Source: Thermoproteota archaeon
GTDB lineage: Archaea; Korarchaeota; JAOZGF01; JAOZFZ01
Assembly (NCBI GenBank): GCA_027492035.1
Contig: JAOZFT010000022.1
Span: 1 to 20,412 of the forward strand
Length of the DNA: 20,412 bases
Reading direction: 5' to 3'
Shown: piece after piece, positions 1-15,623 of the stretch
How the letters are laid out: every line of letters begins with the position of its first letter
Numbering within the stretch: position 1 is the first letter of the stretch
Notes under the pieces: generated by a model
The model's database searches: none
The model's input: only the letters and a program-made list of their open reading frames with translations
What the model was told of the DNA's origin: nothing
Program-made: the position numbers and the translations under genes

Positions 1-1860
1 GAATACGCAAGAATCCCTTTAAGAAAAGGAGTGAACATTATCTGCGGCCCCAACGGTTCCGGAAAAAGCTCTATTCTACTTGCCTTGGCAGTAGCTCTAG
101 GTCAAACCTACACTGAAAGAGGGAGAAAACTAAGTGATCTAATCAGGAGAGGAAAGGATTTAGCCAGGGTTACTGTTGTTTTTGACAATTCCCCAAGAAA
201 AGGGAAAAGGCCAATACCTACGTGGAGAAATGACGACTTCTTACTTACCAGGTATATTAGAAAGGATGGAACTTATTGGCAAGAAATAAACTACAAAAGC
301 GTGACGAAAAACGAGGTAAGAAAGTTCCTTGAAAAGGTTGGAATTAACCCGGAAAACCTGTTGATTATTATGCATCAAAACATGATTGAGGAGTTCAGTT
401 TCCTTTCCCCTCAAGAGAAACTTCTGATGTTTGAGGAAGCAGTAGGTATTAAGGATTACCGTGAAAAAATTATTGAAGGAAGAAATAAACTTTCAGCTGT
501 GTTAAGTGAAGAAGAAGCTGTTAAAACAATGCTTAAAAAAGCACATGAAACCCTTTCTTACTGGGAAAAAGAATACAGGAAATTCCTGGAGAAAAAGGAG
601 CTGTTGAAAAGGAAAAAAGAGCTAGAGAGAGAATTAGCATGGGCCAAAGTAAAGAACCATGAAAGAACCCTTTCAAAACTTCAACAAGCAACGAAAAAAC
701 TTGAAAAAGAAATAACGGAGTTGAAAGCACTGCTTAAAAAAGAGAAACTGGAAATAAATGGGTGCAATTCACAAATCAACAAGTTACGAAAGCAAGTAGC
801 TAATAATTATGGGGAAGTTATTCAGTTAGAGAAGGAAATAACCCAGTTAGAAACAAAAAGGAAGATTTATTTAGAAATAAAGAATTTGTTAGGTGAAGAA
901 GAAAGGGTTACAAGGAAGAAACCCCTTGTCAAGTTCTTAGAAGAAATAACTTTTTCCCAGAAAGAAATAGACGAATTGAAGAAGAAAGTAAGGGAGGGGA
1001 AAAGGAGGATTAGTTCTGTAGAGGAGGAAAGGGATGTTTTCACCGAAAAATTGATTGGGTTAAAAATAAGTGAAGCGCTGCACATGTTCAAGGTAGAGCT
1101 GAAAACTGAAGAATTGGTAGACGTAAATAAGGAGATAAGGAAGGTAAGTAATGAACTGAAAGAACTTAAACTAAATGCTGAATTGAAGGGTGAAAGGGTG
1201 GAGAGTTTCAGGAAAATAAATGAAATAACTGACGAAATAAAGCTTGTGAATTCGAGATTAATGACGTTGAGGAATGTTTCACAAGACACTGAAACCTTTT
1301 ACCTAAATTACAAGGGAATAGTTAAGGATTTAGAGGAAAAAGCTAGAATAGCAGCGGAAAACAGGAAAAGAGCCATTGAAGAACTTGAGTTAAGGATTCG
1401 TAAATGGAGGGAGGTAGTAAGAAGTATTTTAAGGAACGTGAACAAAACCTATGACGAAATACTTAAAAAATTAAATGCTGTAGGTAACGTGAAGTTTGTA
1501 AACAGCCATGACGTTGAAGAAGCAGGCCTTGAGCTTCAAGTAGGTTTCCAGGGGGCTGAACCACAAATTCTTGACTCATACACTCAAAGCGGCGGAGAAA
1601 GGACGGTAGCAGTTATGTCTTTCCTTTTAGCTCTTCAACAGCACATAAAGTCACCTATAAGAGCAGTAGATGAATTCGACGTCCACATGGACCCAAAAAA
1701 TAGGGAAGCGTTACTTAATCAACTCTTCTCTGCAGTGGAGAAACAAAATATCCAGTATATAATCATCACACCTGGGATACTTCCAAATTTAAATGAAGAC
1801 GTGAATGTGATTGTGGTCCAGAATGTGGAGGGAGTTTCAAAAACAAGTTCAGTGGAGTGA
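1..1860 (+). CDS. SMC-family ATPase, short Smc5/6-like (archaeal SMC-related), 5'-truncated by the window edge
   Basis: Frame is open from base 1 (EYARIPLRKGVNIICGPNGSGKSS), so the true start lies upstream of the window and GTG31 is internal. Walker A GPNGSGKS, R-loop GRKLSDLIRRG, Q-loop IMHQN, about 340 aa of heptad-rich coiled coil, signature QSGGER, Walker B/D-loop SPIRAVDEFDVHMD, terminal QYIIITP. Confidence 0.93.
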   Translation, partial: EYARIPLRKGVNIICGPNGSGKSSILLALAVALGQTYTERGRKLSDLIRRGKDLARVTVVFDNSPRKGKRPIPTWRNDDFLLTRYIRKDGTYWQEINYKSVTKNEVRKFLEKVGINPENLLIIMHQNMIEEFSFLSPQEKLLMFEEAVGIKDYREKIIEGRNKLSAVLSEEEAVKTMLKKAHETLSYWEKEYRKFLEKKELLKRKKELERELAWAKVKNHERTLSKLQQATKKLEKEITELKALLKKEKLEINGCNSQINKLRKQVANNYGEVIQLEKEITQLETKRKIYLEIKNLLGEEERVTRKKPLVKFLEEITFSQKEIDELKKKVREGKRRISSVEEERDVFTEKLIGLKISEALHMFKVELKTEELVDVNKEIRKVSNELKELKLNAELKGERVESFRKINEITDEIKLVNSRLMTLRNVSQDTETFYLNYKGIVKDLEEKARIAAENRKRAIEELELRIRKWREVVRSILRNVNKTYDEILKKLNAVGNVKFVNSHDVEEAGLELQVGFQGAEPQILDSYTQSGGERTVAVMSFLLALQQHIKSPIRAVDEFDVHMDPKNREALLNQLFSAVEKQNIQYIIITPGILPNLNEDVNVIVVQNVEGVSKTSSVE

Positions 1861-1863
1861 AGA

Positions 1864-2631
1864 ATGAAAAGGGAAGAAAAGGAATTAATTCAAAGAATTA
1901 TACAGCTTGGGGAAATGTTTGGAAAAGGGAACATAGACCCTTTCCAAATTAACGTAATAAGGTACTTAAACCTTTTAAGGGAAATATTTCCGAAAATGAA
2001 AACTACACAGGAACTGAAAATGGATATTGAAGCATTAAGGCAGTTGATTAACATAGTTTTTCAACAAAAGGAGTTTTTGAAACAGAAATCTTCAAAACTT
2101 TACCTGGACCCCTTACTTGTTGAATGGAAAATAGAAAACTTAAGCAATAAAGAGTTAAGTGAAATACTTATTAATTCGTGGCATCCAATAGTGGAAATAA
2201 ATCAGTTAAACAAAGAAAGGATTAAACAGTCAATAGAGTACTGGAGAGAGATTTTAGGTGGAAAAAGGAAGACGGAGCTTGAGAAACTATGTGAAGCTAC
2301 TCATGGAAAGATAAAACTTGAAGACCTTAAAAAGCATGGTTTTTTAAGTGAGGAAACCTTTATTCAAACCTTAAACAGTTTCTTTAAAGAAGTAACTTCG
2401 AAAATAATTGAAAAAGGACAAATATCTTATTGGGAAGCCGTGAAAAGTGAAAAGTTTCATCAAACAGTGAAGAAAGCTTACCTTCTAAGTTTCCTCTTAA
2501 CTGCAGGCTTATTAGAAATAGAAATAGATCCCATAAGGGAGGAAATCACCTTGAAAATTCCTATGAAAAGGAAGGGTGTTAGGATGGGGGGGTACTCCCT
2601 ACCTATTCCTCTCACACCTGGAAAAGTGTAG
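1864..2631 (+). CDS. Putative kleisin subunit (ScpA-like N-terminus, Nse4-like C-terminal winged helix)
   Basis: ATG 3 nt after the SMC stop. N-terminal IDPFQINVIRYLNLL resembles the ScpA 'DPWDI.I' motif. C-terminal ISYWEAVKSEKFHQTVKKAYLLSFLLTAGLLEIEID resembles the kleisin/Nse4 C-terminal WH. Size (255 aa) is typical of prokaryotic kleisins. Confidence 0.72.
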   Translation: MKREEKELIQRIIQLGEMFGKGNIDPFQINVIRYLNLLREIFPKMKTTQELKMDIEALRQLINIVFQQKEFLKQKSSKLYLDPLLVEWKIENLSNKELSEILINSWHPIVEINQLNKERIKQSIEYWREILGGKRKTELEKLCEATHGKIKLEDLKKHGFLSEETFIQTLNSFFKEVTSKIIEKGQISYWEAVKSEKFHQTVKKAYLLSFLLTAGLLEIEIDPIREEITLKIPMKRKGVRMGGYSLPIPLTPGKV

Positions 2632-2659
2632 GAGTAAATGGGGAAGAGGAAAACAAGAA

Positions 2660-3235
2660 ATGTCTAAAAATGAACAATTGGAAATTAAAAGCAAAGTTGA
2701 GAAAGCAGCAAGGCTTTTATTAATGAAAAGGCAGCGTCAACCCGGAGTAAAGGGTTGGGAGTTAAAGAAAAACTTGGGGCCGAAATATTTAGAGGTTATA
2801 AAGCTCTTAAAGAAACAATTGGAGGATATAGGGTTATCAATTAAAATAATTCCCCAAGAGGAATCTGGAACAAATGGAAAGGAAGCAATGTACAATAAAG
2901 CAAAGTTTTATGTTGTTTTTAAGGAGCATCCCACTTTAAGTGAAGTTAAAACAGCAGGTTGGAGAATAGATGACTTAGCAATGCTTTCAGCAACTCTTTT
3001 ACAAATAATTTCACACCAAGGAAGAGTTGAAAGAAAGGAAGTTGAAGAAATGTTGTACAGCAAATTTTTAAAGTGGAGAGTCGACTACAACCTAAACAGG
3101 TTCATAAAAATGGGTTATTTAAGGGAAGATGAAAAAGGGTTACTTTACATAGATTGGAGGACTAAAGCTGAAATAGACAGCGAAACTTTAATGAGTTTAC
3201 TTTTAGCCAAACCCTCACTTAAGGAAAAAAGCTGA
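2660..3235 (+). CDS. Putative KITE subunit (tandem winged helix, Nse3/MAGE/Nse1-like), about 191 aa
   Basis: Likely start ATG2660 (MSKNEQ) after GAGGA at 2646-2650, not the overlapping start at 2576 in the ORF track. WH-A-like KVEKAARLLLMKRQRQPGVKGWELKK...LKKQLEDIGLSIKII; WH-B-like LAMLSATLLQIISHQGRVERKEVEEML...LNRFIKMGYL...WRTKAEID. Third gene of the SMC-kleisin operon. Confidence 0.68.
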   Translation: MSKNEQLEIKSKVEKAARLLLMKRQRQPGVKGWELKKNLGPKYLEVIKLLKKQLEDIGLSIKIIPQEESGTNGKEAMYNKAKFYVVFKEHPTLSEVKTAGWRIDDLAMLSATLLQIISHQGRVERKEVEEMLYSKFLKWRVDYNLNRFIKMGYLREDEKGLLYIDWRTKAEIDSETLMSLLLAKPSLKEKS

Positions 3236-3979: not shown

Positions 3980-6853
3980 TTAAAAGTATTTTGCCTTCTC
4001 AAATTTATTCAGAAGCTCTTCCCTTTCAGCTCTCCAAATTTCTTCAAACAATTTATTAGTGACTTTATCCTCCCTTTCTATTAACTTTTTTGCTTTCTTG
4101 AAGCTTATGTTAGCAGTTAAAACAATAACTGCTAAAATTCCCTTTAAAGAAACAAGTTCAGATGTTTTAACTAGTTTTCTCCAGATTTTATTTTTCTTTT
4201 CAACTCCCTTCTTTCCTTTCAAAGTTTCTATTTCTCTCCTAACTTTTTCAACAGGTTCATTCACTAACCCTACCCTTTTTGACTTGCAGAAGGGGCAAGT
4301 GACCGGGGGCTCCAGCTCAAACACTTTCCTTTCTTCAACATATTTTAAACAGTTTAAGCAAACAAATACACGGGACTCTGAAAGAATTCTTGTTTTGACC
4401 GAGAGAATCCTTAACATCCTGTTTTTTTCAGGTTTAAATGGTTCAAGGTGCTCTTGAAGGAACTTAAACGAGTTTTTAGCTATTTCAGTGGGTTTTTCCT
4501 GCTCCCCTAAAACCTGTATCTCTATTTCTCCCTCCCTTATCTTTTCAAGTACTTTAGTTGTTTTCTCCAGATCTAAATCTTTACTTTTAACTTCTTTCAG
4601 TGCCTCGACATATACTGGAGTGTCTTTTAAACCAGTCAACAATTGTTCAATCAAAGTATTTGTCACCCTAACCTTCTTCTCCAATACACCCATTCTCTGC
4701 GCTACATGTGTTAGTCTCCACTTAAAGAAGCCACTCCTTGAAATGAAAGGCTCCAAGTAGGTTTCAATGTCTCTCTCATGCTCAACCAAAATTTCTTTAA
4801 TTACTGACGGAGTCAATGTTTCAGTGTTAATTATTATCCTGTATGGTCCTTCGTGGATATATATGTTTTCAGCTGTTAAATCCGTTAATTTAGAGGATAA
4901 ATACAGCCCCAAGGTTCTGTTGACTTTTGTGCCAAAATGCATGTGGACAATTATGTGCCCTTTAATTTTTTCAATCAGGACTCTTTTGTTTGTGGGTAAG
5001 GGCAAGCCTTTGGAGGCTTGGATATAGGCATCCTTCAACCCCTTAATTAAAGCTTCTTTACTGAAAGGGTAAACTTTTAAGGTTTCCTCCACTATTTCTG
5101 TAAAATTTCTTCCCTCCTTAACCATTCTCTCAACTATACCCCTTAATTCACCTACTTCTTGAGCTATTTCGAAGGGGACAGGGATGTATTCCCCTACCCA
5201 ACTGGGAATTGAACCTAGATAGTCTTCTTCAGGGGAAACATAAACTTTGTCCTCAAACACCTGAATTATTTTCCAAGGTTTGCCTGAAATAACGAATTTT
5301 GTCCCTGGAGTGCCGTGTTCGGCAACAAAGAAATCGTCAAGTAAACCTACAGGCAAGTTATCTTCCTCATTAATCACCAGGTATTGTTTAACTTCAGGTA
5401 TCATGGAGAGGTTTTGGTAGAAGTAATTGTATAGTCTTGCACGGTTCCTGCCTCGGCCGAATTCTCCATCTTCCCTTGAAAACCAAACAAATTTGTTTGG
5501 CAGGTTTTCCATGAAAAGTAAAAGCTTAACTAATTCTTCTTTTTCAAGGTTTCTGTAAGGATAAGCCTTTTTCACGAGATTAAAAAGCTCCTCTAAACCC
5601 CATTTGCCTTTTACAATTAAGTAACTAGTTATTTCATGCATCAAAACGTCTAAAGGTTTGTCAGGGATGTTTAATGGTTCAAGTTTTTCTTTTGAAGCAT
5701 TTTTAATTATTGCCAGGGATTCTAAAGCGTCGTCTGAGTTCTGAACCACTACAACCCCTTTAGAAACCTCTTCCAGTTTATGCCCACTTCTACCAATTCT
5801 TTGAATAAGTCTTGTAACCTGTCTTGGGGAATTGTACTGGATGCAGAAATCAATAGTTCCAATATCTATTCCTAACTCAAGGGATGAAGTGCAGATTACG
5901 CTTCTATACTCTCCCTCTTTTAACCCTTGCTCTGATTTAAGCCTTGTCGCAGTTGACAGTGAACCATGGTGAATGTTTATAGGTGTCTTCAAATCCAAGA
6001 GTTTAAACCTGCTCGTTAAAAGTTCAGCTGTGGTTCTTGTGTTTGTGAACAAAAGAGTTGTCTTGTTCCTATCTATTATTTCCCTTATCACCCTTAACCT
6101 GGCTGCAACTTCAGGGTGTAGGAAAAATTTCTGGGCTGAAAAGAAGTCCTTCCTAGAGGGGGTTGGAAAAACGACGTCAACCTTAATTTTTTTAGCTACA
6201 GGCACATAAACGATTTTACATTCCCTTCCTACACCACAAAGAAGTTTAGCTGCTTCTTTAGGGCTTCCCACGGTAGCCGACAAACCAATTATTTGAAAAT
6301 CTCTTCCAATAGTCCACCTTAACTTTTCAAGTGAGAGAGTTAACTGCACACCCCTCTTGTTCTCAGCTAATTCATGAACTTCATCCACAATAACCCATTT
6401 AACGGTTTTAAGTGTTTCACGCAGTAATTTACCGTTCAAAATTATTTGTAAAGTTTCAGGAGTTGTAATTAAAACATCAGGAGGAGCAATAACTTGTTTC
6501 CTTCTTTCAAAAGGGAGAGTGTCACCATGTCTCACATTAATTCTCACATCTAATCTTCTACACCACCATTCAAGCCTCTCAAGCAAATCCCTGTTCAAAG
6601 CCCTTAAAGGAGTTATGTAGATTAATTTGACACCGTACTCCCTAGGTGTTGAAAGGATTTTTTGCAGAACAGGTAAAAAAGCAGCTTCTGTTTTACCTGT
6701 TCCAGTTGGAGCAATTACTAAAACATTCTCTCCCTTAAGAATAAAAGGAATTGCTTCAAGCTGAGGGGGAGTAAGTTCAGTAAATCCATGAGCCTTAAAA
6801 AGCTCCTTAACAGGTTTAATTAACAAATTTAAAATTTGAGAGGAATCACTCAA
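3980..6853 (-). CDS. lhr: Lhr-family ATP-dependent SF2 helicase with C-terminal Cys4 motif
   Basis: TTG start preceded by GGTGG. Motifs: Q motif LTPPQ, PTGTGKT, YITPLRALNRD, TTPETL, DEVHE, LSAT, HHGSLS, TSSLELGIDIG, QRIGRSGH; Lhr-specific SMIP and IPSWVGE; C-terminal CLNC...CPFC. Confidence 0.94.
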   Translation of the reverse strand: MSDSSQILNLLIKPVKELFKAHGFTELTPPQLEAIPFILKGENVLVIAPTGTGKTEAAFLPVLQKILSTPREYGVKLIYITPLRALNRDLLERLEWWCRRLDVRINVRHGDTLPFERRKQVIAPPDVLITTPETLQIILNGKLLRETLKTVKWVIVDEVHELAENKRGVQLTLSLEKLRWTIGRDFQIIGLSATVGSPKEAAKLLCGVGRECKIVYVPVAKKIKVDVVFPTPSRKDFFSAQKFFLHPEVAARLRVIREIIDRNKTTLLFTNTRTTAELLTSRFKLLDLKTPINIHHGSLSTATRLKSEQGLKEGEYRSVICTSSLELGIDIGTIDFCIQYNSPRQVTRLIQRIGRSGHKLEEVSKGVVVVQNSDDALESLAIIKNASKEKLEPLNIPDKPLDVLMHEITSYLIVKGKWGLEELFNLVKKAYPYRNLEKEELVKLLLFMENLPNKFVWFSREDGEFGRGRNRARLYNYFYQNLSMIPEVKQYLVINEEDNLPVGLLDDFFVAEHGTPGTKFVISGKPWKIIQVFEDKVYVSPEEDYLGSIPSWVGEYIPVPFEIAQEVGELRGIVERMVKEGRNFTEIVEETLKVYPFSKEALIKGLKDAYIQASKGLPLPTNKRVLIEKIKGHIIVHMHFGTKVNRTLGLYLSSKLTDLTAENIYIHEGPYRIIINTETLTPSVIKEILVEHERDIETYLEPFISRSGFFKWRLTHVAQRMGVLEKKVRVTNTLIEQLLTGLKDTPVYVEALKEVKSKDLDLEKTTKVLEKIREGEIEIQVLGEQEKPTEIAKNSFKFLQEHLEPFKPEKNRMLRILSVKTRILSESRVFVCLNCLKYVEERKVFELEPPVTCPFCKSKRVGLVNEPVEKVRREIETLKGKKGVEKKNKIWRKLVKTSELVSLKGILAVIVLTANISFKKAKKLIEREDKVTNKLFEEIWRAEREELLNKFEKAKYF

Positions 6854-7311
6854 AATAAATCCACCAAAAACCTAAAAGTAAAGAAATTAAAAAATAAGTT
6901 TGCTTTTTCAACTGAAAAGAAACAGGGAACTAAAGTCTCAAAAATACTCCCCCCCCCCAAAAAAAAAGAATAAACCACAATATTGAAGCCACATACAAGT
7001 TACGCATTAACTTACGTATTTAACCCAATTGGCATTCACTTAATTCTTACCGGCGCCTTCCCTTATTTAAACATTTCCACTCTTTCCTCAGTTTTACATA
7101 ACCTATCCCTACTTTTTTGGGGGATTTAGGAGATTTGCCTCTTTATTAAACAATTTTTTAAATGCTCCAGTTTAAATACCTGAAACAGTTAAATGAAAAT
7201 TTTTAAGCACCCTACATTTCCATTCACCCAAAAAATCTCCTTAAAAACCCTTTTTTGAAGAGTTTAATGGTTTATGAAGGTGAACTTATGCATTACATTC
7301 ACAGCATTTAT

Positions 7312-7685
7312 TTTGAAAATTAGATTGCTTGTTATAGAGGCCGAGTAAAGCAGGTTATCGATATTGTCTACGTGGCCTAGTTTACGAAGCTTAAAGCCAA
7401 CTTTACAGCCTTAGGCGAGGGATTGATCCATTCATAAAACCCTAATTCTAAAAGAGATTTCACTGCTACACCTACTTCATCCTCCACATTTAAATTTAGA
7501 CGTTCCTTTCTCCATAACCCTTGTCTATGACTTCAATCTATGAGATTGTTAAACAGTAAAACTTAACTACTCCCTTAAACACGGCCTCCCTAAGCTTAGA
7601 TATTTGTTCATCAGGTAAATCCCTTTACTTCGATGCCGAAGCTTGGCAGGATATATGTTGAACCTAATAAAACTTTAAACATCAT
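7312..7685 (-). pseudogene. vapC: VapC/PIN-domain toxin pseudogene (not in ORF track)
   Basis: Manual minus-strand translation across frameshifts gives MMFKVLL(G)STYILPSFGIEVKG / DLPDEQISKLREAVFKGVVKFYCLTIS*IEVIDK / RLNLNVEDEVGVAVKSLLELGFYEWINPSPKAVKLA / FKLRKLGHVDNIDNLLYSASITSNLIF. This is a PIN pattern with the first catalytic Asp replaced by Gly, an in-frame TAG at 7540-7538 and about three frameshifts. Confidence 0.75.
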
Positions 7686-7967
7686 AAAGTTCTCGTTGCT
7701 CCTTTTCAGAGGGTTCCATCCGGAAAGGAAACATGCAAGAGGGCATGCACATTACCTCTATGTAGCGTTGCTGTGTTTTGTATTTATTTAATAGGTATTC
7801 AATTGTTTTATTGTCTTTAAATACTTCTTTTTTAATACTTTATTAACTGTGACACCACCTGTAGGTATATCGAAGCTTTGAACCATCTTTATAAATCCCT
7901 TTCACCGCTGATATTGGGAGGGATAGTGGTAAAGTTATAAAGAAGAAAGCTGTTTTCTCAGGTCTTT

Positions 7968-8390
7968 TTATAGTTGAGAGATGCTTACTATGTGTTTTCT
8001 ATATTTCTCCCCTAAGGTTTGAGTTAATTTTTGATCTGCAGTGTAGAGCACGGTTTTCAGTTTAAGCGCTAGGGCTAAGTATGATGCGTCATATATAGTT
8101 ACATTTCTTTCTACTCCTATTTCAACAGTTTTTTCAGCCAGATCCCCTATTAAAGGGTAAAATAATATCCCGTAGCTTGAAAGTGACGCGGCGGCTGCTT
8201 TAAGTTCTTCTAAACTAAATAATTTACTATATTTAAGGGCGTTAAGGACTTCAAATGGAAGCAGCTCAGGTGCAACTATGTTTATTTCCCTGTTTACATG
8301 CATATCCCTCAGTTTGTTGGCTTTATCTGAATATTTCTCTTTAATAAACCACTTCGCAATTACACTGGCGTCACTGACCACGTTCTCCAT
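7968..8390 (-). CDS. vapC: VapC PIN-domain toxin (type II TA)
   Basis: VVSDASVIAKWF...E, PELLPFEVLNAL, TIYDASYLALA and LYTADQKL contain the conserved PIN acidic residues. Overlaps the upstream antitoxin gene by 20 nt. Confidence 0.93.
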   Translation of the reverse strand: MENVVSDASVIAKWFIKEKYSDKANKLRDMHVNREINIVAPELLPFEVLNALKYSKLFSLEELKAAAASLSSYGILFYPLIGDLAEKTVEIGVERNVTIYDASYLALALKLKTVLYTADQKLTQTLGEKYRKHIVSISQL

Positions 8391-8616
8391 AGCGACTTTC
8401 CCTCCAGTGTCTTATTAAGTCAGTGCTGTTCCACCCTTTAGGGGCTGTTTTCCTAATTTTTTCGTTGAGTAACACTGCTTTGGCGAGGTTTCTCCCTTTC
8501 TCTTCCTCTATTACCCTTAAAACAGCGCTTCTAATGACCTCGCTCCAATTTATATGTTTAAGTTTCTCCATCTGCCTTTTAACATCTTCCTCTACTCTAA
8601 CACTTATTACAGGCAT
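8371..8616 (-). CDS. vapB: VapB-type ribbon-helix-helix antitoxin
   Basis: MPVISVRVEEDVKRQMEKLKHINWSEVIRSAV is an RHH pattern; C-terminal STDLIRHWRESR is typical of archaeal VapB; directly upstream of and overlapping vapC. Confidence 0.88.
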   Translation of the reverse strand: MPVISVRVEEDVKRQMEKLKHINWSEVIRSAVLRVIEEEKGRNLAKAVLLNEKIRKTAPKGWNSTDLIRHWRESRYGERGQ

Positions 8617-9374: not shown

Positions 9375-10703
9375 TTAAATGTATTCAAAAATGCTTATTT
9401 CTTTTTCAGAGTCTATTTCCATAATTTTTTTGAAAAGAGTTTTACTTCTTTCTTCACCTATGTTTCCTTCAACTAAACTAATGAACTTTTCCTTTAATTC
9501 ATTGATTGTTAAAGGGTTTTCAGGGTCTCCTTTAGGTTTATCAACAAATTCTTCCAAAACTTCCCCGCTTTCTTTCTCAATTCTTAGAAGTGAGGGCTGT
9601 TTAGGGAGTAGGTTGTTGAATTCTTCCCTAACTTTAACAATTACCTTGTCCCTAAGTTTAAGGACTTCTTTGTCTTTTAAAGAACTCCTTAAATCCTTAA
9701 CTGTAAATGACCCGTTCACAAGCGCCGCAGCTACACAGTGACTTAAACTGAACTTTGCTTCCTCTATTGTTACCGGTTTCCTTAACCCAGCCACTTCCAC
9801 CGCCTCCCTATATGTCTCTACTTCCACCTTCCTTACTTTATTCACTTCCACTTTTTTGTGCATTTTCAAAGCTGCTTCAATGGAGGAGTGGATGTGGCGG
9901 CATGAAGGGTAAGGCTTAATTGAAACATTTAAAATTTCCTTCGCCTCCAAGTTTTCAATTATTTTTTTGGGGGAAGCATTGGGAGCTAAACCAGCCATGA
10001 ATCCTTGGCTACCTTCAAAAATGGTTAATGGGGAAGCTATTCTTTTTAAACTCAACATTGACGCTAATGCCCCAAGCCATGAAGCATGTGCAGGTATTAA
10101 AGGCTTTAAAGATGAACCTGATTTAATGTACTCCCATAAACCTGAAGTTAAAACCCCTGCTATGCCAATGGCTTCAGCTGTTTCCTTTGAGTCGAGTTTT
10201 TGAATTTTTGAAGCTGAAGCAGCTGCTCCAAAAGATCCACAGGTGCCTGTTGTGTGCCATATTTTGTAATGTTCCTGTCCAGCTGCAACTGCAACTCTTA
10301 TGCATACTTCATACCCTGCAACAATTGCTTCTATGAGTTCTTTCCCGGATTTTTTCTGTTCTTCAGCTAAAGCTAAAGCTGCTGAGTTTACGACCGTGCC
10401 TGGATGTATTATTCCGCCCATGTGTACATCATCAAGTTCTGTTGAGTGAGATGAGAAAGAGTTTAGGAATGCTGCAGAAAGAGGGTTTGTTTTATTCCAT
10501 AAACCAATTAAGGTTGATTCTCCTTCTCCGCTAAATTTTTCAGTTAAGAATTTCATGTTTTTGTTTCTGGAACCATAAACTGCACATCCAATCCAGTCAA
10601 GTAAAAGTTCTTTAGTTTTCTTTTTTACTTGTGAAGATAAATTCTTGTAAGTGATGGATTCCACATGTTCCCCCAAAACTTCAGAAATCGTCTTCATTTC
10701 CAT
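9375..10703 (-). CDS. MmgE/PrpD family protein
   Basis: LLLDWIGCAVYG, AAFLNSFSSHSTELDDVH...HPG, AIVAGYEV, WHTTGTCG, KPYPSCRHIHS, EAKFSL and PKGDPENPLT..EL.EKF. Overlaps the citE-like gene end. Confidence 0.92.
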   Translation of the reverse strand: MEMKTISEVLGEHVESITYKNLSSQVKKKTKELLLDWIGCAVYGSRNKNMKFLTEKFSGEGESTLIGLWNKTNPLSAAFLNSFSSHSTELDDVHMGGIIHPGTVVNSAALALAEEQKKSGKELIEAIVAGYEVCIRVAVAAGQEHYKIWHTTGTCGSFGAAASASKIQKLDSKETAEAIGIAGVLTSGLWEYIKSGSSLKPLIPAHASWLGALASMLSLKRIASPLTIFEGSQGFMAGLAPNASPKKIIENLEAKEILNVSIKPYPSCRHIHSSIEAALKMHKKVEVNKVRKVEVETYREAVEVAGLRKPVTIEEAKFSLSHCVAAALVNGSFTVKDLRSSLKDKEVLKLRDKVIVKVREEFNNLLPKQPSLLRIEKESGEVLEEFVDKPKGDPENPLTINELKEKFISLVEGNIGEERSKTLFKKIMEIDSEKEISIFEYI

Positions 10704-11592
10704 TCTTCTCTTTCTCTTTAATTTGTTTCATTAACTCAATTACTTCTTTAGCTTGTTTATAATGTACTTCATCTATCATTCTACCTGCGTAAGTTGTTGC
10801 CCCTAACCCTCTAGACACTGCTTCCTCATAGGCTTTCACTATCCCTTTTGCTTCCTCGATTTCTTGTTTTGTTGGAGTGAAGACTTCATTTATTATTTTT
10901 ACATGCGAAGGGTGAATGGCGAATTTTCCTTTAAACCCTAATTTGGAAGCTATTTCGGATTCTTTCTTAACTCCCTCTTTATCAATTATTAACCCTAGAA
11001 AAGGAGAGTCAATAGCTAATTGGTTGTTGGCTCTTGCAGTGACTGAAATAGTTGATCTGGCATGTAAAAGCTCATATTGGTTACTGGATAACTTCACGTA
11101 ACTTTTTCCCATATCTCTCAAAAAATCAGCCGCTCCGAAAGAAATAGCTGTTACTCTTTCACTTGAGAAAGATATTTCTCTTAAATTAATTATTCCTTTT
11201 GCACTTTCAATTAAAGGGATTAGAAACACTTTCTTGTTTATTCCTCTCTTCTTTTCCAGTTTTTCAAGAACTTTAACTGTTTCTTTAACTTCTTCTTTTG
11301 ACTCTGTTTTAGGCAAAACTATTCCGTTAAGTCCTTTCTGGACAACAAACTCCAAGTCTTTCTGAAGTAAACCTGTTCCTGCACTGTTAACCCTTACAAT
11401 AATGTTTTGTTTCATTTTTTTGTTTTCCACCTCCTCCAAAAAATCTTTAATGAACCACCTAGCTGTTTCTTTTTCATCAATAGGTACTGAATCCTCTAAA
11501 TCAAGAACTACAGCGTCAGCTTCTTCTTTCATTGATTTTTTCATCATTCTCCAACTGTTAGCTGGAACGAAAAGAAGGGATCTGAGAATCAC
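10681..11592 (-). CDS. citE: CitE/HpcH-HpaI family CoA-ester lyase (citryl-/malyl-/citramalyl-CoA lyase-like)
   Basis: LRSLLFVPAN, ADAVVLDLEDSV, VRVN, LPK, LIESAKG, FGAADF, GFKGKFAIHPSH and GRMID. GTGA overlap with the upstream alpha-subunit stop. Exact substrate unknown. Confidence 0.9.
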   Translation of the reverse strand: MILRSLLFVPANSWRMMKKSMKEEADAVVLDLEDSVPIDEKETARWFIKDFLEEVENKKMKQNIIVRVNSAGTGLLQKDLEFVVQKGLNGIVLPKTESKEEVKETVKVLEKLEKKRGINKKVFLIPLIESAKGIINLREISFSSERVTAISFGAADFLRDMGKSYVKLSSNQYELLHARSTISVTARANNQLAIDSPFLGLIIDKEGVKKESEIASKLGFKGKFAIHPSHVKIINEVFTPTKQEIEEAKGIVKAYEEAVSRGLGATTYAGRMIDEVHYKQAKEVIELMKQIKEKEKNGNEDDF

Positions 11593-12491
11593 TTATTTCC
11601 ACCTAATACTTCAAGGAGGGTTGAAGGTATTTCTTTAGGTTTGTTGACAATTCTTACACCTGCCTCCTCCAAAGCCTCTATTTTGCTTTTAGCTGACCCT
11701 TTCCCACGTGTAACAATGGCACTTGCATGTGAAAACCTAACTCCACCAGGTAAAAATTTACCTGCTACATAAGCTACAACAGGTTTTTTGATGCCTTTCT
11801 TCTTAATTATTTCAGCTGCTTCTTCCTCTTGAACCCCACCTATTTCACCGAACAAAGCTACGGCTTTTGTTTCATTGTCTTTTTCAAACATTTCCAGAAG
11901 TTCAGCTTCAACTGTTCCAAGGACAGGTTCTGCACCTACATGTATAGCTGTTGAAACACCAAGTCCTGCTTTGCTTATGCTCCAAGAAATAGTTGTTGTT
12001 TGGCCTCCGCTTCTTGAAATAACCCCTATTTCTCCTGGTTTGAAGGCTTCTCTAGCTAATTCAATGGATCCCCCTATCCATCCAAGAACAGCTTTACATG
12101 GACTTATAACCCCGAATGAACCAGGTCCAATAATTTTCACTCCCATTCTTTTTGCTTTCGCAAGTATGTAGAGAACGTCATGTACGGGAACGTTTTCTGT
12201 CGGGATAAGTAACTCCTTAACTTTGTTCATTATGGCTTCAAGAGCAGCTTCCTTGACGTTTGAAGGAGGGACAAGAGTCACTGCTGCATCAACTTCTCCA
12301 TGTTTCTCAACAACTTCCTCTACACTGTTGTAAACAGGAACCCCCCAAACTTTCATTCCTCCTTTCCCAGGAGTTACGCCTGCAATAACTTTTGAACCAT
12401 ACTCAAGCATGTACCTGGTTGCAAATTCACCTGTTCTACCTGTTATTCCTTGAACAATTATTTTTGTTTCTTCATTTACAAGAATAGCCAC
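11589..12491 (-). CDS. sucD: Succinyl-CoA synthetase alpha-like subunit (divergent ADP-forming acid-CoA ligase)
   Basis: GTG start with AGGAGGAG RBS. IIVQGITGRTG, AGVTPGKGG, IIGPGSFG, SRSGG, GEIGG..EE and phospho-His loop RFSHASAI. Confidence 0.88.
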   Translation of the reverse strand: MAILVNEETKIIVQGITGRTGEFATRYMLEYGSKVIAGVTPGKGGMKVWGVPVYNSVEEVVEKHGEVDAAVTLVPPSNVKEAALEAIMNKVKELLIPTENVPVHDVLYILAKAKRMGVKIIGPGSFGVISPCKAVLGWIGGSIELAREAFKPGEIGVISRSGGQTTTISWSISKAGLGVSTAIHVGAEPVLGTVEAELLEMFEKDNETKAVALFGEIGGVQEEEAAEIIKKKGIKKPVVAYVAGKFLPGGVRFSHASAIVTRGKGSAKSKIEALEEAGVRIVNKPKEIPSTLLEVLGGNK

Positions 12492-12503
12492 TTTTCTCCT
12501 CCT

Positions 12504-12764
12504 TCACAACGGAACATTTATTTTGATTGCTTCTCCACCGCTCCATTTACAATGTATTTCACAGGCTAAACATTCATTGCAGAGTTTACTTGCTTTTTCA
12601 GGAGCAACAGCTAAGGCAGGTTTTGAATTAAATATTTTAAGGACGTTTCTGCCGTAAAGCCTGTCGGCTTTTACACATGCAAATTTACAGTTTGGAGCTA
12701 TGCATTTACTGTAATCAATAATTATTTCACATGTTCTTGTTTTGAAAACTAAAGAATTAGACAA
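12504..12764 (-). CDS. Small ferredoxin-like Fe-S protein
   Basis: TTG start with GAGGAGG RBS, overlapping the beta-subunit stop. IIIDYSKC-x4-C-x3-C-x3-D and CNECLACEIHC motifs. Confidence 0.75.
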   Translation of the reverse strand: MSNSLVFKTRTCEIIIDYSKCIAPNCKFACVKADRLYGRNVLKIFNSKPALAVAPEKASKLCNECLACEIHCKWSGGEAIKINVPL

Positions 12765-14004
12765 ACTTGTTCCTCCTCTCTCTTAAATATTCATCAATCA
12801 TTTTTTTCAATTTGTCCACTATAAAGTCTGTTTCGTAAATGTAATCCCTACCATAAAGTTTAAGTTTGATAGGGAGTTTTTGAAGCCCTTTCCTTATTAT
12901 TTCATGTGTTTCTTTTTCTTTGTTGCCAGCTATCAATATTAAAACAGGAAATCCTGGTTTATTCTTTAATGATTCATTTAACGCCTTCACTATTGCGTGA
13001 GCATGGTGCCATTGTTCTTGGCTTGCAATCACTGAACCTATTAAGGCGTAACCAATTATTCCTGGTTGGGAAAGAATTGTTTTAATAACTCTATAGATTT
13101 TAGATGCCGGAGGGTCTCCGCTTGTATCTGCGTAATTAGCTATTTTTAACCCTTTCTCTAAAAGAGCATCTGTTGCAAGCATCGCTCCTCCTCCACCTAT
13201 TCCGTGGAAGCCGACACATCCCTTTGTGTCCTTTGTTAACTGTATAAAGTACCCTGTCCCTCTTTTATCTATTTGTTCAAACCTCCATATTTTTTTCTCC
13301 AGCTCCGTTAACCCTCTGCCTATTTCTCTTCCAACCCCTATTTCTTTATGTTTAAAAAGGGAGTTGTCATCTATTGTTACTCTACAGTCTGCAGCTATAA
13401 CTTTTCTGTTAACTGTTTGAACTAAAGGGTTAATTTCTACAGTGGTTGCGTCATATTCCTTCGACAACTTGCAAATTTTTTCTGCGTAATCAATTATTTC
13501 CTTAACAGGTAAACCTTTGATTTTTGAAATTTTCCCTTCAAATTCTTCCTTTTTTAATCCATCCACAGGATCTATCACGGTCTTAATTATTCTTGAAGGT
13601 TCTTTCTCAGCTATTTCCTCTATGTCAACCCCTCCTTCGTCGTTGAAAATAAGGACTTGGCTTCTTACTTTAAAGGAGTCGTCAATCGTTACCCCTAAAT
13701 AAAACTCTCTTTTAATTTCAAGTTTCTTTTCAACCAAAATTTTACTTACTTTAAACCCTTTAACAGGGTTGCTGAAAATTTTTTCAGCTTCTTTTTCAAC
13801 TTTTAACTTGTTTTCAGCAAATTTTATGCCTCCAGCTTTAAATCTTCCTGTAACATGAACCTGAGCCTTTAAAACAACAGGAAAACCTATTTTGGAAGCT
13901 GATTCAACAGCTTCTTCAGGAGTTTCAGCCACTAAACCTACAGGAGTTTCTATGCCATATTTTGCAAGTAAATTTTTCCCTTGATATTCGAAAAGTTTAG
14001 CCAA
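12757..14004 (-). CDS. sucC: Succinyl-CoA synthetase beta-like ATP-grasp subunit (divergent, citryl-CoA synthetase/ACL-like C-domain)
   Basis: MAKLFEYQGKNLL, PVVLKAQV..GRFKAGGIK, EFYLG, GGVDIEE, EINPL, AADCRVTIDDNSLF. The substrate domain GIGGGGAML...ANYADTSGDPP is non-canonical. Confidence 0.87.
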   Translation of the reverse strand: MAKLFEYQGKNLLAKYGIETPVGLVAETPEEAVESASKIGFPVVLKAQVHVTGRFKAGGIKFAENKLKVEKEAEKIFSNPVKGFKVSKILVEKKLEIKREFYLGVTIDDSFKVRSQVLIFNDEGGVDIEEIAEKEPSRIIKTVIDPVDGLKKEEFEGKISKIKGLPVKEIIDYAEKICKLSKEYDATTVEINPLVQTVNRKVIAADCRVTIDDNSLFKHKEIGVGREIGRGLTELEKKIWRFEQIDKRGTGYFIQLTKDTKGCVGFHGIGGGGAMLATDALLEKGLKIANYADTSGDPPASKIYRVIKTILSQPGIIGYALIGSVIASQEQWHHAHAIVKALNESLKNKPGFPVLILIAGNKEKETHEIIRKGLQKLPIKLKLYGRDYIYETDFIVDKLKKMIDEYLRERRNKFV

Positions 14005-14031
14005 TTCTTCTTCTCCCCTGTATAAGAATTT

Positions 14032-15612: not shown

Positions 15613-15623
15613 TTTAGGTTCCT

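What the first reader, a model, noticed from the sequence alone, without database searches (positions are those of the whole stretch)
1..3235. Minimal archaeal Smc5/6-like complex: SMC + Nse4-like kleisin + Nse3/MAGE-like KITE in one operon
Seen: three co-oriented genes with gaps of 3 and 28 nt. The SMC C-head reads QSGGERTVAVMSFLLALQ..IKSPIRAVDEFDVHMDPKNRE...QYIIITP. Known, recalled from consensus: Smc5 has QSGGER...LxALQ...DEINQGMDP.NER and Smc6 has LSGGERS...SPFR.LDEFDVFMD..NR; both end in Q(Y/F)xxITP instead of the H-loop of canonical Smc (LSGGEK...DEVDA.LD...ITH). This protein mixes Smc5 and Smc6 features, as a pre-duplication homodimer would. Genes 2 and 3 independently resemble the Smc5/6 partners Nse4 and Nse1/Nse3. 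Inference: a complete three-subunit proto-Smc5/6 complex, possibly acting in chromosome organisation or in restricting extrachromosomal DNA. Archaeal SMC5/6-related proteins have been noted by comparative genomics, but I know of no biochemical characterisation of such a trimeric complex.
Basis: partly seen in the sequence, partly recalled or inferred. Interest (0 to 1): 0.88.

Follow-up and report, generated by a model that had tools for sequence, protein, structure and literature searches.

The report
Short archaeal Smc5/6-like SMC operon
An uncultured archaeon carries a tight three-gene operon for a half-length relative of the eukaryotic Smc5/6 DNA-maintenance machine (ATPase, bridging subunit and DNA-binding partner); this kind of operon is already catalogued by comparative genomics but has not been studied at the bench.

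Summary
Window 1-3235 holds three co-oriented genes with gaps of 3 and 28 nt: an SMC-type ATPase (5' end cut by the window; a 99% identical relative is 644 aa), a 255-aa protein and a 191-aa protein. A profile of the ATPase family ranks Smc5 and Smc6 above every other solved SMC. The head shares the ITP motif at the H-loop position and QSGGER with Smc5/6, and groups with fungal and protist Smc5/6 away from canonical SMC. Gene 2 is a kleisin whose family matches Nse4 by sequence profile and by fold. Gene 3 folds as a tandem winged-helix KITE, with Nse3/MAGE and Nse1 as best matches. The trio is adjacent in 10 of 11 related archaeal loci that could be judged. It is not new as a kind: Yoshinaga & Inagaki (2021) defined "SMC5/6-related" archaeal SMCs, and van Hooff et al. 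(bioRxiv 2024/25) described archaeal operons of SMC, Nse4-like kleisin and Nse1/3-like kite. One point appears in none of the passages I read: the SMC is half-length, with about 145-residue arms, a variable unconserved apex, no hinge domain and no zinc hook. Subunit binding could not be tested because the complex tool failed.

The parts
1..1860 (+). SMC5/6-type SMC ATPase, half-length (619 of about 644 codons; the first 25 are cut off by the window edge)
   Evidence: Pfam SMC_N 6.2e-33 spanning residues 4-590. PDB best hit by single sequence is yeast Smc5 at 2.8e-24. With the family profile, the first ten PDB hits are all Smc5/Smc6. Full-length relative P0004 is 644 aa, 615/619 identical.
46..72 (+). 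Walker A, GPNGSGKSS
   Evidence: The GKSS form occurs in 20/20 family members and 2/2 Smc5; 20/20 canonical SMCs have GKSN/GKTN.
364..381 (+). Q-loop region, IIMHQN
   Evidence: H150 and Q151 (P0004 numbering) are invariant in 20/20.
886..945 (+). Apex of the coiled-coil arms: variable turn, not a hinge domain
   Evidence: This is the least conserved 20-residue block (0.29 mean identity). All alignment indels of the arm region fall here. It contains Gly/Pro. No CxxC in any of 20 members.
1585..1602 (+). ABC signature motif, QSGGER (Smc5-like)
   Evidence: QSGGER in 20/20 family members and 2/2 Smc5; Smc6 has LSGGEK.
1660..1707 (+). Walker B and D-loop, RAVDEFDVHMDPKNRE (Smc6-like DEFDV.MD..NR)
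   Evidence: D582, E583, F584, H587, D589 and P590 are invariant.
1753..1773 (+). QYIIITP: Thr-Pro at the H-loop position, as in Smc5/6
   Evidence: ITP in 20/20 family members and (I/V)TP in 4/4 Smc5/Smc6. In 20/20 canonical SMCs the site reads (S/T)(H/L), never P.
1864..2631 (+). Nse4-related kleisin, 255 aa
   Evidence: Pfam Nse4_C is weak for this protein alone (E 0.0028) but hits 60 of 90 family members (best 7.2e-9). Profile against PDB: EID3 3.1e-7, yeast Nse4 4.8e-6, ScpA N-terminus 0.012. AF2 model pLDDT 85.3. Best Foldseek hit is Nse4 7qcd_F, then Rad21, Brn1 and the ScpA C-WHD.
1864..2100 (+). Kleisin N-terminal helical domain with long helix (residues 1-79); by analogy the SMC-neck binder
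   Evidence: Model helices H3-20, H31-44 and H48-79, pLDDT 93-98. Profile residues 4-74 match the ScpA N-domain 6ivh_A. The binding role is inferred.
2110..2256 (+). Kleisin central helices (residues 83-131); by analogy the KITE-binding region
   Evidence: Model H83-92, H95-105 and H117-131, followed by a low-confidence linker at 137-147. The role is inferred from Nse4, ScpA and MukF; it was not tested.
2350..2556 (+). Kleisin C-terminal winged-helix domain (residues 163-231); by analogy the SMC-cap binder
   Evidence: Model H163-184, H189-193, H198-213, E218-222 and E227-231. Superposes on the ScpA C-WHD 4i99_C (TM 0.76 of target, rmsd 2.6) and on Scc1-C. Aligned to the Nse4/EID3 C-terminal domain.
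2660..3235 (+). KITE subunit of Nse1/Nse3 (MAGE-like) type, 191 aa, tandem winged helix
   Evidence: No Pfam, NCBIfam or PDB sequence hit for this protein alone. AF2 model pLDDT 84 with two winged-helix domains. Foldseek: MAGE-G1 1e-5, Nse3 7dg2_C 2.5e-5 (TM 0.60), Nse1 5hvq_C (TM 0.64), JetB 3.6e-4, ScpB 1e-3, MukE. Among family members, 4/43 hit Pfam MAGE and 3/43 SMC_Nse1.
2666..2920 (+). KITE winged-helix domain 1 (residues 3-87)
   Evidence: secondary structure: H3-22, H32-39, H43-55, E59-64, E82-87.
2966..3151 (+). KITE winged-helix domain 2 (residues 103-164)
   Evidence: H103-118, E122-124, H125-135, H141-151, E154-156, E161-164. The invariant G100-W101..D104 lies just before it.

Best explanation
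The three genes encode the subunits of a homodimeric SMC-kleisin-KITE complex. It belongs to the archaeal lineage that is the closest prokaryotic relative of eukaryotic Smc5/6-Nse4-Nse1/Nse3. Shown here: the family assignment of each protein, the intact ATPase motifs, and the conserved three-gene arrangement. Inferred from how Smc5/6, Smc-ScpAB and MukBEF work (established structures): two SMC subunits engage their heads around two ATP molecules (Walker A/B of one head, QSGGER signature of the other). One kleisin bridges them asymmetrically, with its N-terminal helical domain on the neck of one SMC and its C-terminal winged helix on the cap of the other. A dimer of the KITE protein sits on the central part of the kleisin and helps to clamp DNA on top of the engaged heads. 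ATP hydrolysis resets the clamp. Because the arms are only about 145 residues each (roughly 20 nm) and end in a variable turn, not a hinge domain, the two SMCs are probably held together by the heads, the kleisin and the KITE dimer, and not by a hinge. I expect a compact ATP-gated DNA clamp or entrapment device working on the chromosome (repair, junction or topology management, as for Smc5/6). I do not expect a long-range loop extruder.
For: SMC type. With the profile of 20 family members, the first ten PDB sequences are all Smc5 or Smc6 (153-174 bits); the best canonical Smc head scores 127, full-length Smc1-4 <=108 and Rad50 <=41. Among proteins longer than 1127 aa, the best hit is a fungal Smc5 (117 bits; identity confirmed), ahead of all canonical SMCs (<=103 bits). 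In the head tree (44 rows, 324 columns), the family (20/20, support 100/99) joins Smc5+Smc6 and is separated from archaeal plus bacterial canonical SMC by a 100/100 branch of 1.88 changes per site. Forcing the family together with archaeal canonical SMC costs 106 lnL units, p-AU 6e-62. Shared derived motifs: ITP at the H-loop site, QSGGER, DEFDxHMDPxNR.

ATPase. Walker A, Q-loop, signature, Walker B Asp-Glu and D-loop residues are invariant in 20/20.

Kleisin., as listed under parts.

KITE..

Operon. Gaps of 3 and 28 nt here. Kleisin and KITE homologues lie directly downstream of the SMC, abutting or overlapping by a few nt, in 10 of 11 archaeal loci whose downstream DNA is present.

Housekeeping setting. 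The operon sits next to the RNA polymerase-L30e-NusA cluster in 3 of 8 loci examined. Lhr helicase, NucS, reverse gyrase or topoisomerase genes are nearby in others. No shared nuclease or effector gene was found.

Literature. Yoshinaga & Inagaki 2021 (sections 10 and 14 read) and van Hooff et al. (sections 8 and 14 read) describe SMC5/6-related archaeal SMCs and operons with an Nse4-related kleisin and an Nse1/3-like kite in the same phyla.
Against: No interaction was tested: the complex prediction was lost and then unavailable.

The absence of a hinge therefore rests on four indirect points: length; low conservation of residues 241-380; indels confined to the apex; and 3.5-residue periodicity over most of residues 169-515, with gaps.

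The tree has only three real clusters, so its unrooted topology alone does not prove sisterhood with Smc5/6. It holds 4 eukaryotic rows from 3 species, on long branches, and no Smc1-4, Rad50, ASRP, MukB or JetC rows. The AU group was named after the tree had been seen.

The KITE assignment is mainly structural. The window's own protein has no sequence-family hit, only 4/43 and 3/43 relatives touch MAGE and Nse1 weakly, and the Foldseek E-values for Nse3 (1e-5), JetB (3.6e-4) and ScpB (1e-3) are not far apart.

The single SMC sequence also scores 197 bits on NCBIfam SMC_prok_A, far below that model's cut-off of 729. No Smc5/6 HMM was available for a like-for-like comparison.

Function in vivo is wholly inferred. 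I could not confirm by accession number that this family is the published 'SMC5/6-related aSMC' set: the GBE supplement was unreadable and bioRxiv supplements are closed.
Confidence: 0.78

Rival explanations
1. It is a divergent copy of the canonical prokaryotic condensin Smc-ScpA-ScpB, shortened but otherwise the ordinary chromosome-segregation complex.
For: The architecture is the same (SMC, kleisin, tandem winged-helix KITE in one operon). NCBIfam SMC_prok_A gives the highest HMM score for the single sequence (197 bits). The ScpA N- and C-domains and Pyrococcus ScpB appear among the weaker profile and fold matches.
Against: The SMC_prok_A score is far below its cut-off of 729. Smc5/Smc6 outrank all canonical SMCs with the family profile. 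None of 20 canonical SMCs has the ITP or QSGGER states. The tree and AU test separate the family from canonical SMC. The kleisin profile prefers Nse4/EID3 (3e-7 to 1e-5) over ScpA (0.012-0.35), and 60/90 members hit Nse4_C. None of the 120 listed family members carries the SMC hinge Pfam domain PF06470, which most canonical hits carry.
Confidence: 0.05
2. It is an archaea-specific SMC-related protein (ASRP: coalescin ClsN / Sph type) or a Rad50/Arcadin-4-like protein, which are also about 600 aa long, and the two downstream genes are unrelated passengers.
For: The length fits (about 640 aa). NCBIfam ASRP NF045487 aligns end to end (positions 10-589 of 593, E 9.5e-16), and Rad50 models hit weakly.
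Against: The ASRP score is 57.5 bits against a cut-off of 300; Rad50 models give <=51.5 bits against cut-offs of 700 and above; arcadin-4 gives 23.7. [quoted passage not shown] 2022, section 7 read) is absent from 20 of 20 family members. That paper found no conserved gene neighbourhood for ASRPs, whereas here kleisin and KITE follow in 10 of 11 loci. In that paper's tree, SMC5/6-related archaeal SMCs and ASRPs are separate clades.
Confidence: 0.03
3. It is primarily an anti-plasmid or anti-virus defence system of the Wadjet or Lamassu kind, in which an SMC-like complex senses foreign DNA, and not a chromosome-maintenance complex.
For: In PADLOC the SMC hits mad3 (97 bits) and LmuB (80 bits, positions 5-584 of 611), both short hinge-less SMC-like defence ATPases. 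JetB is among the KITE's fold matches. Eukaryotic Smc5/6 restricts episomal viral DNA (abstract of PMC9458440, seen in a search listing). A VapBC pair lies 4.7 kb away in the window, and an integrase lies upstream in L009.
Against: The kleisin and the KITE have no PADLOC hit (0 families each); JetA and JetB models do not match. No nuclease or other effector gene (JetD, LmuA type) is conserved next to the operon in the 8 loci examined (48 flanking ORFs). The neighbours are housekeeping genes (RNA polymerase-NusA cluster in 3 of 8 loci; repair and topology genes). The family is widespread in several archaeal phyla at about 45-50% identity and showed one copy per locus fetched, which is the pattern of a core gene.
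Confidence: 0.1

Closest known systems
Published archaeal 'SMC5/6-related aSMC' and its operon with an Nse4-related kleisin and an Nse1/3-like kite (Yoshinaga & Inagaki 2021, GBE/bioRxiv 10.1101/2021.05.15.444277; van Hooff et al., bioRxiv 10.1101/2024.01.07.573240)
   Same: Same three components, same operon logic and same phyla (Bathyarchaeota, Verstraetearchaeota/Methanomethylicia, Thaumarchaeota, Crenarchaeota, some Euryarchaeota and Asgard). The proposal of a homodimeric SMC complex related to Smc5/6 is also the same (my loci and the named hits come from these groups).
   Different: Most likely nothing differs in kind: this is another member, at most 52% identical to every listed relative except one near-identical protein. 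The sections and passages I read do not mention that these SMCs are half-length and lack a hinge.
Eukaryotic Smc5/6 core (Smc5-Smc6, Nse4, Nse1-Nse3)
   Same: Head motifs (ITP at the H-loop site, QSGGER as in Smc5, DEFDV.MD..NR as in Smc6). Kleisin C-domain of Nse4 type. KITE fold closest to Nse3/MAGE and Nse1.
   Different: One SMC gene instead of two and one KITE gene instead of two, so presumably homodimers. The SMC is 644 aa against about 1090-1100 aa for Smc5/6, with arms of about 145 residues and no hinge domain. The KITE has no RING domain. No Nse2, Nse5 or Nse6 gene is in the operon. The kleisin is 255 aa, against about 330-400 aa for EID3 and yeast Nse4 chains.
Bacterial/archaeal Smc-ScpA-ScpB
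   Same: SMC homodimer, kleisin and KITE dimer encoded together. Kleisin length is about 250 aa, and its N-helical and C-winged-helix domains superpose on ScpA.
   Different: A different SMC clade. The kleisin and KITE match the Nse4 and Nse1/3 types better. It is half the SMC length and has no PF06470 hinge.
Wadjet JetABC / MukBEF
   Same: SMC, kleisin and KITE architecture. JetB and MukE are among the KITE's fold matches.
   Different: JetC reaches only 36 bits in PADLOC, and JetA and JetB models do not hit. There is no JetD-like nuclease gene nearby. MukB and JetC are not among the 60 PDB hits shown.
Short hinge-less SMC-like ATPases: Lamassu LmuB, ASRPs (ClsN, Sph), RecN
   Same: Overall size (about 600-650 aa) and head-arm-turn-arm-head layout. 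LmuB and ASRP models align end to end at low score.
   Different: The scores are far below Smc5/6-level similarity. There is no zinc hook. Those proteins are not known to me to pair with an Nse4-type kleisin plus a KITE (recalled, not tested).

Membership tests
SMC proteins (sensu stricto) | ABC-type head split into N- and C-terminal halves, with Walker A, Q-loop, signature, Walker B and D-loop | tested here: met
   Pfam SMC_N spans residues 4-590. The motif residues are invariant in 20/20 family members.
SMC proteins (sensu stricto) | Long antiparallel coiled-coil arms (about 300-400 residues per strand) | tested here: not met
   Only about 315 residues lie between the head halves, which gives about 145 per strand. 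A 3.5-residue periodicity covers most of residues 169-515. No structural model of the SMC was made.
SMC proteins (sensu stricto) | Globular hinge domain that dimerises two SMCs | tested here: not met
   PF06470 is absent from the window protein and from 120 of 120 listed relatives. However, the three eukaryotic Smc5/6 found also lack that Pfam hit, so this point is weak by itself. Stronger points: the central 140 residues are the least conserved part, the only indel-rich stretch is about 20 residues long, and there is too little sequence for both arms and a hinge. This is indirect, and a model or structure is needed.
Smc5/6-type SMC clade (eukaryotic Smc5, Smc6 and archaeal 'SMC5/6-related aSMC') | Closer to Smc5/Smc6 than to canonical Smc, Smc1-4 or Rad50 by profile and phylogeny | tested here: met
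   the first ten PDB hits are Smc5/6; best long hit is Smc5; tree; AU test. Limits: the tree is unrooted, has 4 eukaryotic rows and has no Smc1-4, Rad50 or ASRP rows.
Smc5/6-type SMC clade | Thr-Pro in place of the H-loop His/Leu; Smc5/6-type signature and D-loop | tested here: met
   ITP in 20/20 family members, (I/V)TP in 4/4 Smc5/6, 0/20 in canonical SMCs. QSGGER is shared with Smc5; DEFDxxMDxxNR is shared with Smc6.
Kleisin (Nse4 / delta-kleisin type) | N-terminal helical domain, flexible middle and C-terminal winged helix | tested here: met
   AF2 model, pLDDT 85.3. The first eight Foldseek hits are all kleisin chains (Nse4, Rad21, Brn1, ScpA-C).
Kleisin (Nse4 / delta-kleisin type) | Sequence membership of the Nse4 C-terminal domain | tested here: inconclusive
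   The window protein alone scores 18.3 bits against Pfam's gathering score of 26. The family signal is clear: 60/90 members match at E<=1 (best 7.2e-9), and the profile hits EID3 and Nse4 at 3e-7 to 1e-5.
Kleisin (Nse4 / delta-kleisin type) | Binds the neck of one SMC and the cap of the other | not tested
   The complex prediction was lost and then unavailable. A bench test is needed.
KITE (Nse1/Nse3-like archetype) | Tandem winged-helix fold | tested here: met
   AF2 model, pLDDT 84, with two winged-helix domains. Foldseek matches at E<=1e-3 are Nse3/MAGE, Nse1, JetB, MAGEA4 and ScpB.
KITE (Nse1/Nse3-like archetype) | Sequence membership of MAGE homology domain or Nse1 families | tested here: inconclusive
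   The window protein has 0 Pfam hits. Among relatives, 4/43 hit MAGE (best 2.9e-4) and 3/43 hit SMC_Nse1 (best 0.012). The profile finds nothing relevant in PDB sequences.
KITE (Nse1/Nse3-like archetype) | Dimer bound to the central region of the kleisin | not tested
Archaeal SMC5/6-related operon (van Hooff et al.) | SMC, kleisin and kite genes adjacent and co-oriented | tested here: met
   In the window the gaps are 3 and 28 nt. The arrangement holds in 10 of 11 related loci that could be judged.
ASRP (ClsN/Sph) | Zinc-hook CxxC at the coiled-coil apex; NCBIfam NF045487 above its cut-off | tested here: not met
   0 of 20 members have CxxC. NF045487 scores 57.5 bits against a cut-off of 300.
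Wadjet / Lamassu defence systems | Match to system-specific models for all subunits, and an associated effector nuclease gene | tested here: not met
   PADLOC matches only the ATPase (mad3, LmuB, JetC at 36 bits); the kleisin and the KITE match none. No conserved effector was found in the flanks.

The most novel reading that the evidence does not exclude
The archaeal Smc5/6-type complexes, this one included, may be natural 'mini-SMCs': SMC-kleisin-KITE machines whose SMC has arms of about 20 nm that end in a variable, unconserved turn, with no hinge and no zinc hook. If so, the two ATPase subunits are joined only at the head end, through ATP, the kleisin and the KITE dimer. An SMC-kleisin-KITE machine could then work as a head-proximal DNA clamp without a hinge-closed ring. 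It would also mean that the sampled archaeal sisters of Smc5/6 are secondarily reduced, so the direct ancestor of eukaryotic Smc5/6 (long arms and a hinge) is still unsampled or lies in other Asgard paralogues.
Probability: 0.45. Interest if true: 0.7.

Novelty: new member of a known kind. Interest (0 to 1): 0.42.

Why it matters
Smc5/6 is the least understood eukaryotic SMC complex, and its origin bears on how the archaeal ancestor of eukaryotes organised and repaired its chromosome. A three-gene, homodimeric version is an attractive reduced system for structure, single-molecule and ATPase work: 644, 255 and 191 aa against well over 3000 aa for the eukaryotic core. If the hinge is truly absent, the system would also test which SMC activities need a hinge-closed ring. 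The existence of such operons is already in print, however. The window adds one more, fairly divergent, example and the unremarked point about length, not a new class.

Tried and rejected
There is therefore no verdict on binding.
- ESM Atlas: the window's SMC and KITE are not held. A homologue, P0039, gave only its own archaeal SMC_N clusters of 641-681 aa and no structure.
- Sequence search of PDB with the KITE, alone and as a profile, found nothing relevant. The kleisin alone also found nothing.
- NCBIfam has no family for genes 2 and 3.
- I tried to match accession numbers of six family members in the supplement of the GBE paper. The zip yielded only 126 characters of text and no hit. bioRxiv supplements are closed, so identity with the published sets rests on taxonomy and features only.
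- Literature searches for a bench study of such an archaeal complex found none in the held library. Subscription papers are not covered.
- I considered a conserved link to Lhr helicase. It is adjacent only in the window and in L001 (2 of 9 settings), so I dropped it as a defining feature.
- Rfam and tRNA scans of the window found nothing.

Full report
**What is there.** The left end of the window carries three co-oriented ORFs: 1..1860 (open at the window edge), 1864..2631 and 2576..3235. The third gene most likely starts at the in-frame ATG at 2660. The resulting 191-aa protein is present letter for letter in the protein collection (P0124), and its relatives are 175-217 aa long. One search gives their coordinates: Walker A at nt 46-72, signature QSGGER at 1585-1602, Walker B/D-loop at 1660-1707 and QYIIITP at 1753-1773. 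A relative identical at 615 of 619 aligned residues is 644 aa long (P0004), so the window misses only the first 25 codons.

**The ATPase.**
- Pfam places SMC_N across residues 4-590.
- NCBIfam models for canonical SMC, ASRP, Rad50 and arcadin-4 all match far below their cut-offs: 197 against 729, 57.5 against 300, <=51.5 against >=700, and 23.7 against 860.
- Against PDB sequences the single protein hits yeast Smc5 best (2.8e-24), narrowly ahead of Pyrococcus Smc heads.
- With a profile of 20 of the 120 listed relatives (A1) the picture sharpens. The first ten hits are all Smc5 or Smc6 chains of yeast and human (153-174 bits). The best canonical Smc head scores 127, full-length Smc2/3/1/4 score 108/88/85/85, and Rad50 scores <=41.
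- Among proteins longer than 1127 aa, the best hit is a fungal protein (117 bits) that one search identifies as Smc5. Another hit is an Smc6, and a third is named SMC5 by UniRef. The remaining hits are canonical SMCs, most with the PF06470 hinge domain.

**Head tree and motifs.**
- I built a head-only tree of 44 rows and 324 columns. The rows were 20 family members, 2 Smc5, 2 Smc6 (near-identical, one species), 16 archaeal and 4 bacterial canonical SMCs, picked.
- The family is monophyletic (100/99). It joins Smc5+Smc6 (96/80) and is separated from all canonical SMCs by a 100/100 branch.
- Holding the family together with the archaeal canonical SMCs costs 106 log-likelihood units (p-AU 6e-62).
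- These results have limits. There are only three real clusters, so the unrooted topology says little by itself. The eukaryotic rows are few and on long branches. There are no Smc1-4, Rad50 or ASRP rows. The AU group was named after the tree had been seen.
- The motif table is the more telling evidence. At the H-loop position the family has ITP in 20/20 and Smc5/6 has (I/V)TP in 4/4, while 20/20 canonical SMCs have (S/T)(H/L). QSGGER is shared with Smc5. DEF(D/E)xH(M/L)DPxNR resembles the Smc6 string DEFDVFMDAVNR. Walker A is GKSS (family and Smc5) or GKSA (Smc6), against GKSN/GKTN in canonical SMCs.
- All catalytic motif residues are invariant in the 20 aligned members, so an active ATPase is expected.

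**The arms.** The 120 listed relatives are 612-678 aa long, and none carries the hinge Pfam domain. The SMC ORFs in the eight related loci I tabulated are 605-676 aa. Between the head halves lie about 315 residues. Conservation drops from 0.7-0.9 in the heads to 0.29-0.52 in residues 241-380 (P0004 numbering), with the minimum at 321-340. All indels of the arm region fall at reference positions 320-349 or so, where members differ by 0 to about 45 residues and usually have Gly or Pro. Alignment-averaged hydrophobicity shows the 3.5-residue period of amphipathic helices over most of residues 169-515, with some breaks. No member has a CxxC (0 of 20). I read this as two arms of about 145 residues joined by a variable turn, with no hinge domain and no zinc hook. 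A nearly invariant patch on the returning arm (V381, A384, E394, E410, L411, L414, A418, G422, R429) remains unexplained.

**Gene 2.** Alone it gives only a sub-threshold Pfam Nse4_C hit (E 0.0028, residues 193-225) and nothing in PDB sequences. A full scan of the 50%-representative library found 192 relatives at E<=1e-3. I aligned the query with 89 of the 149 other listed hits, chosen for near-full length (A3).
- Of these 90 proteins, 60 match Nse4_C (best 7.2e-9). No other family matches more than 3.
- The profile's best PDB hits are EID3, a human NSE4 paralogue (3.1e-7), and yeast Nse4 (4.8e-6; 1.4e-5). They are followed by the ScpA N-domain (0.012) and the ScpA C-domains (0.33-0.35).
- The AF2 model (pLDDT 85.3) has an N-terminal helical domain with a long helix (residues 48-79), central helices, a disordered linker (137-147) and a C-terminal winged helix.
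- Its best Foldseek hit is Nse4 of the yeast holo-complex (E 1.1e-3, probability 0.99). The next hits are Rad21, Brn1 and ScpA C-domains (TM 0.71-0.77 of the target).

Gene 2 is therefore a kleisin of the Nse4 kind.

**Gene 3.** No Pfam, NCBIfam or PDB-sequence hit was found for the window protein. It has 702 relatives, all unnamed or 'hypothetical' and none with a precomputed Pfam domain among the 120 listed. In an alignment with 42 of those (A2), 4 of 43 touch Pfam MAGE (best 2.9e-4) and 3 of 43 touch SMC_Nse1 (best 0.012). The profile finds nothing meaningful in PDB sequences. The AF2 model (pLDDT 84) shows two winged-helix domains. Its best Foldseek hits are:
- MAGE-G1/Nse3 (1e-5);
- Nse3 in the Nse1-Nse3-Nse4 complex (2.5e-5, TM 0.60);
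- Nse1 (TM 0.64 and 0.56);
- the yeast holo-complex KITE chains;
- then JetB (3.6e-4), MAGE-A4, Pyrococcus ScpB (1e-3) and MukE.

This is the KITE fold with a preference for the Nse1/Nse3 type. The preference is moderate, not decisive.

**Synteny and setting.**
It also returned 13 bacterial loci that match only the Walker A region.
- Homologues of both gene 2 and gene 3 lie directly downstream of the SMC in 10 loci. Two loci end inside the SMC gene, and one (L010) has unrelated convergent genes instead. That makes 10 of 11 loci that could be judged, with abutting or slightly overlapping reading frames.
- Pfam was run on 48 flanking ORFs from 8 loci, chosen as those nearest the operon out of 105 ORFs.
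- The RNA polymerase-L30e-NusA cluster lies next to the operon in L003, L007 and L013. Lhr helicases lie on both sides in L001, and one lies at 3980-6853 in the window. NucS is in L005 and L007, reverse gyrase and a topoisomerase in L006, and an integrase in L009.
- No shared nuclease or effector gene appears.
- In PADLOC the ATPase matches mad3 (97 bits) and LmuB (80 bits), while the kleisin and KITE match nothing.
- This is the setting of a chromosomal housekeeping or repair function, not of a defence island.

**How it probably works.** Shown here: three proteins of the right families, intact ATPase motifs and a conserved operon. Inferred from the solved Smc5/6, Smc-ScpAB and MukBEF/JetABC structures: ATP-driven head engagement of two identical SMCs, asymmetric bridging by one kleisin (N-domain to neck, C-winged helix to cap), and a KITE dimer on the kleisin's middle that helps to hold DNA on the engaged heads. 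The short arms and missing hinge suggest a compact clamp held together at the head end. I commit to this as the most likely mechanism and to a chromosomal maintenance role, while noting that nothing here tests DNA binding, stoichiometry or function. The one computational interaction test I started (two KITE copies plus the kleisin) was lost by the remote machine, and the tool then became unavailable.

**What is known.**
- Yoshinaga & Inagaki (2021; I read the abstract, sections 10 and 14, and passages) found 80 'SMC5/6-related' archaeal SMC homologues, 66 of them in TACK archaea. They proposed that these form homodimeric complexes.
- Yoshinaga et al. (2022; abstract, first part of section 7, passages) separate these from the zinc-hook ASRPs.
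- van Hooff et al. (bioRxiv, version of May 2025; abstract, sections 8 and 14, passages) report that Nse4 groups with a TACK/Asgard kleisin clade and that an 'Nse1/3-like' kite archetype exists only in archaea. [quoted passage not shown]

My searches of the held library found no bench study of such a complex. None of the passages I read mentions the short length or the missing hinge. Their supplements, which I could not see (bioRxiv supplements closed), may do so, and would also be needed to confirm by accession that this family is theirs.

**Verdict.** This is a real, well-supported instance of a known kind. Compared with the eukaryotic complex it has one SMC and one KITE gene, no RING, no Nse2/5/6 and half-length arms without a hinge. 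Because canonical SMC and Smc5/6 both have hinges, the short form is more likely a reduction than the ancestral state. That tempers the 'proto-Smc5/6' label. Interest is moderate. The most novel reading still open is that these are natural hinge-less mini-SMC-kleisin-KITE machines.

Noticed in passing
window 3980-6853 (-); L001 3987-6818 (-) and 10216-13071 (-): An Lhr-type large helicase (DEAD, Helicase_C, WH_Lhr, DEAD_assoc) lies one gene away from the operon in the window, and two Lhr genes flank the operon in L001. It is not seen next to the operon in the other seven loci examined, so this is a possible repair link but not a conserved one.
   Followed up: partly
L003 41-6657; L007 11945-15914; L013 11790-15837: In three Bathyarchaeia loci the operon sits beside the RNA polymerase large-subunit / L30e / NusA-KH cluster, which is a core housekeeping neighbourhood.
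   Followed up: partly
L002 3984-6890 (+): In the Thermofilales locus a 968-aa ORF starts 2 nt after the KITE gene on the same strand. It has no Pfam, PADLOC or PDB-sequence hit. It could be a lineage-specific fourth subunit or could be unrelated.
   Followed up: partly
window 1141-1287 (SMC residues 381-429 in P0004 numbering): A nearly invariant patch (V381, A384, E394, E410, L411, L414, A418, G422, R429) lies on the returning coiled-coil strand, in an otherwise poorly conserved arm. It could be a partner-binding site or a joint. It remains unexplained.
   Followed up: no
window 6854-7967: About 1.1 kb between the Lhr gene and the PIN gene has no ORF of 60 aa or more, no Rfam family, no tRNA and no notable repeats.
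   Followed up: partly
window 7968-8616 (-): A VapC-like PIN-domain gene overlaps a VapB-type antitoxin gene (NCBIfam TA_anti_VapB_Sulfo 3.1e-11). This looks like an ordinary type II toxin-antitoxin pair.
   Followed up: no
window 9375-17327 (-): This is a metabolic cluster. It holds an MmgE/PrpD-family protein, a CitE-like lyase, succinyl-CoA-ligase-like alpha and beta subunits (the beta with an ATP-citrate-lyase citrate-binding domain) and TfrB/TfrA-like fumarate reductase. It resembles a citryl-CoA synthetase/lyase route of the reductive TCA cycle.
   Followed up: no
tree, row P0044: The one family member labelled Hodarchaeaceae (Asgard) sits deep inside a group with Hadarchaeota-labelled sequences, not next to the eukaryotic Smc5/6. 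This could reflect gene transfer or a binning or labelling problem.
   Followed up: no
L005 11234-12037; L007 4923-5732; L006 475-4098 and 12362-14224: Endonuclease NucS genes (two loci), and reverse gyrase plus a type IA topoisomerase (one locus), lie within 7 kb of the operon.
   Followed up: no
window 20069-20410 (+, open at the 3' end): An ORF at the right edge has a weak, sub-threshold match to the Cap15 cyclic-dinucleotide receptor domain (E 0.0015).
   Followed up: no
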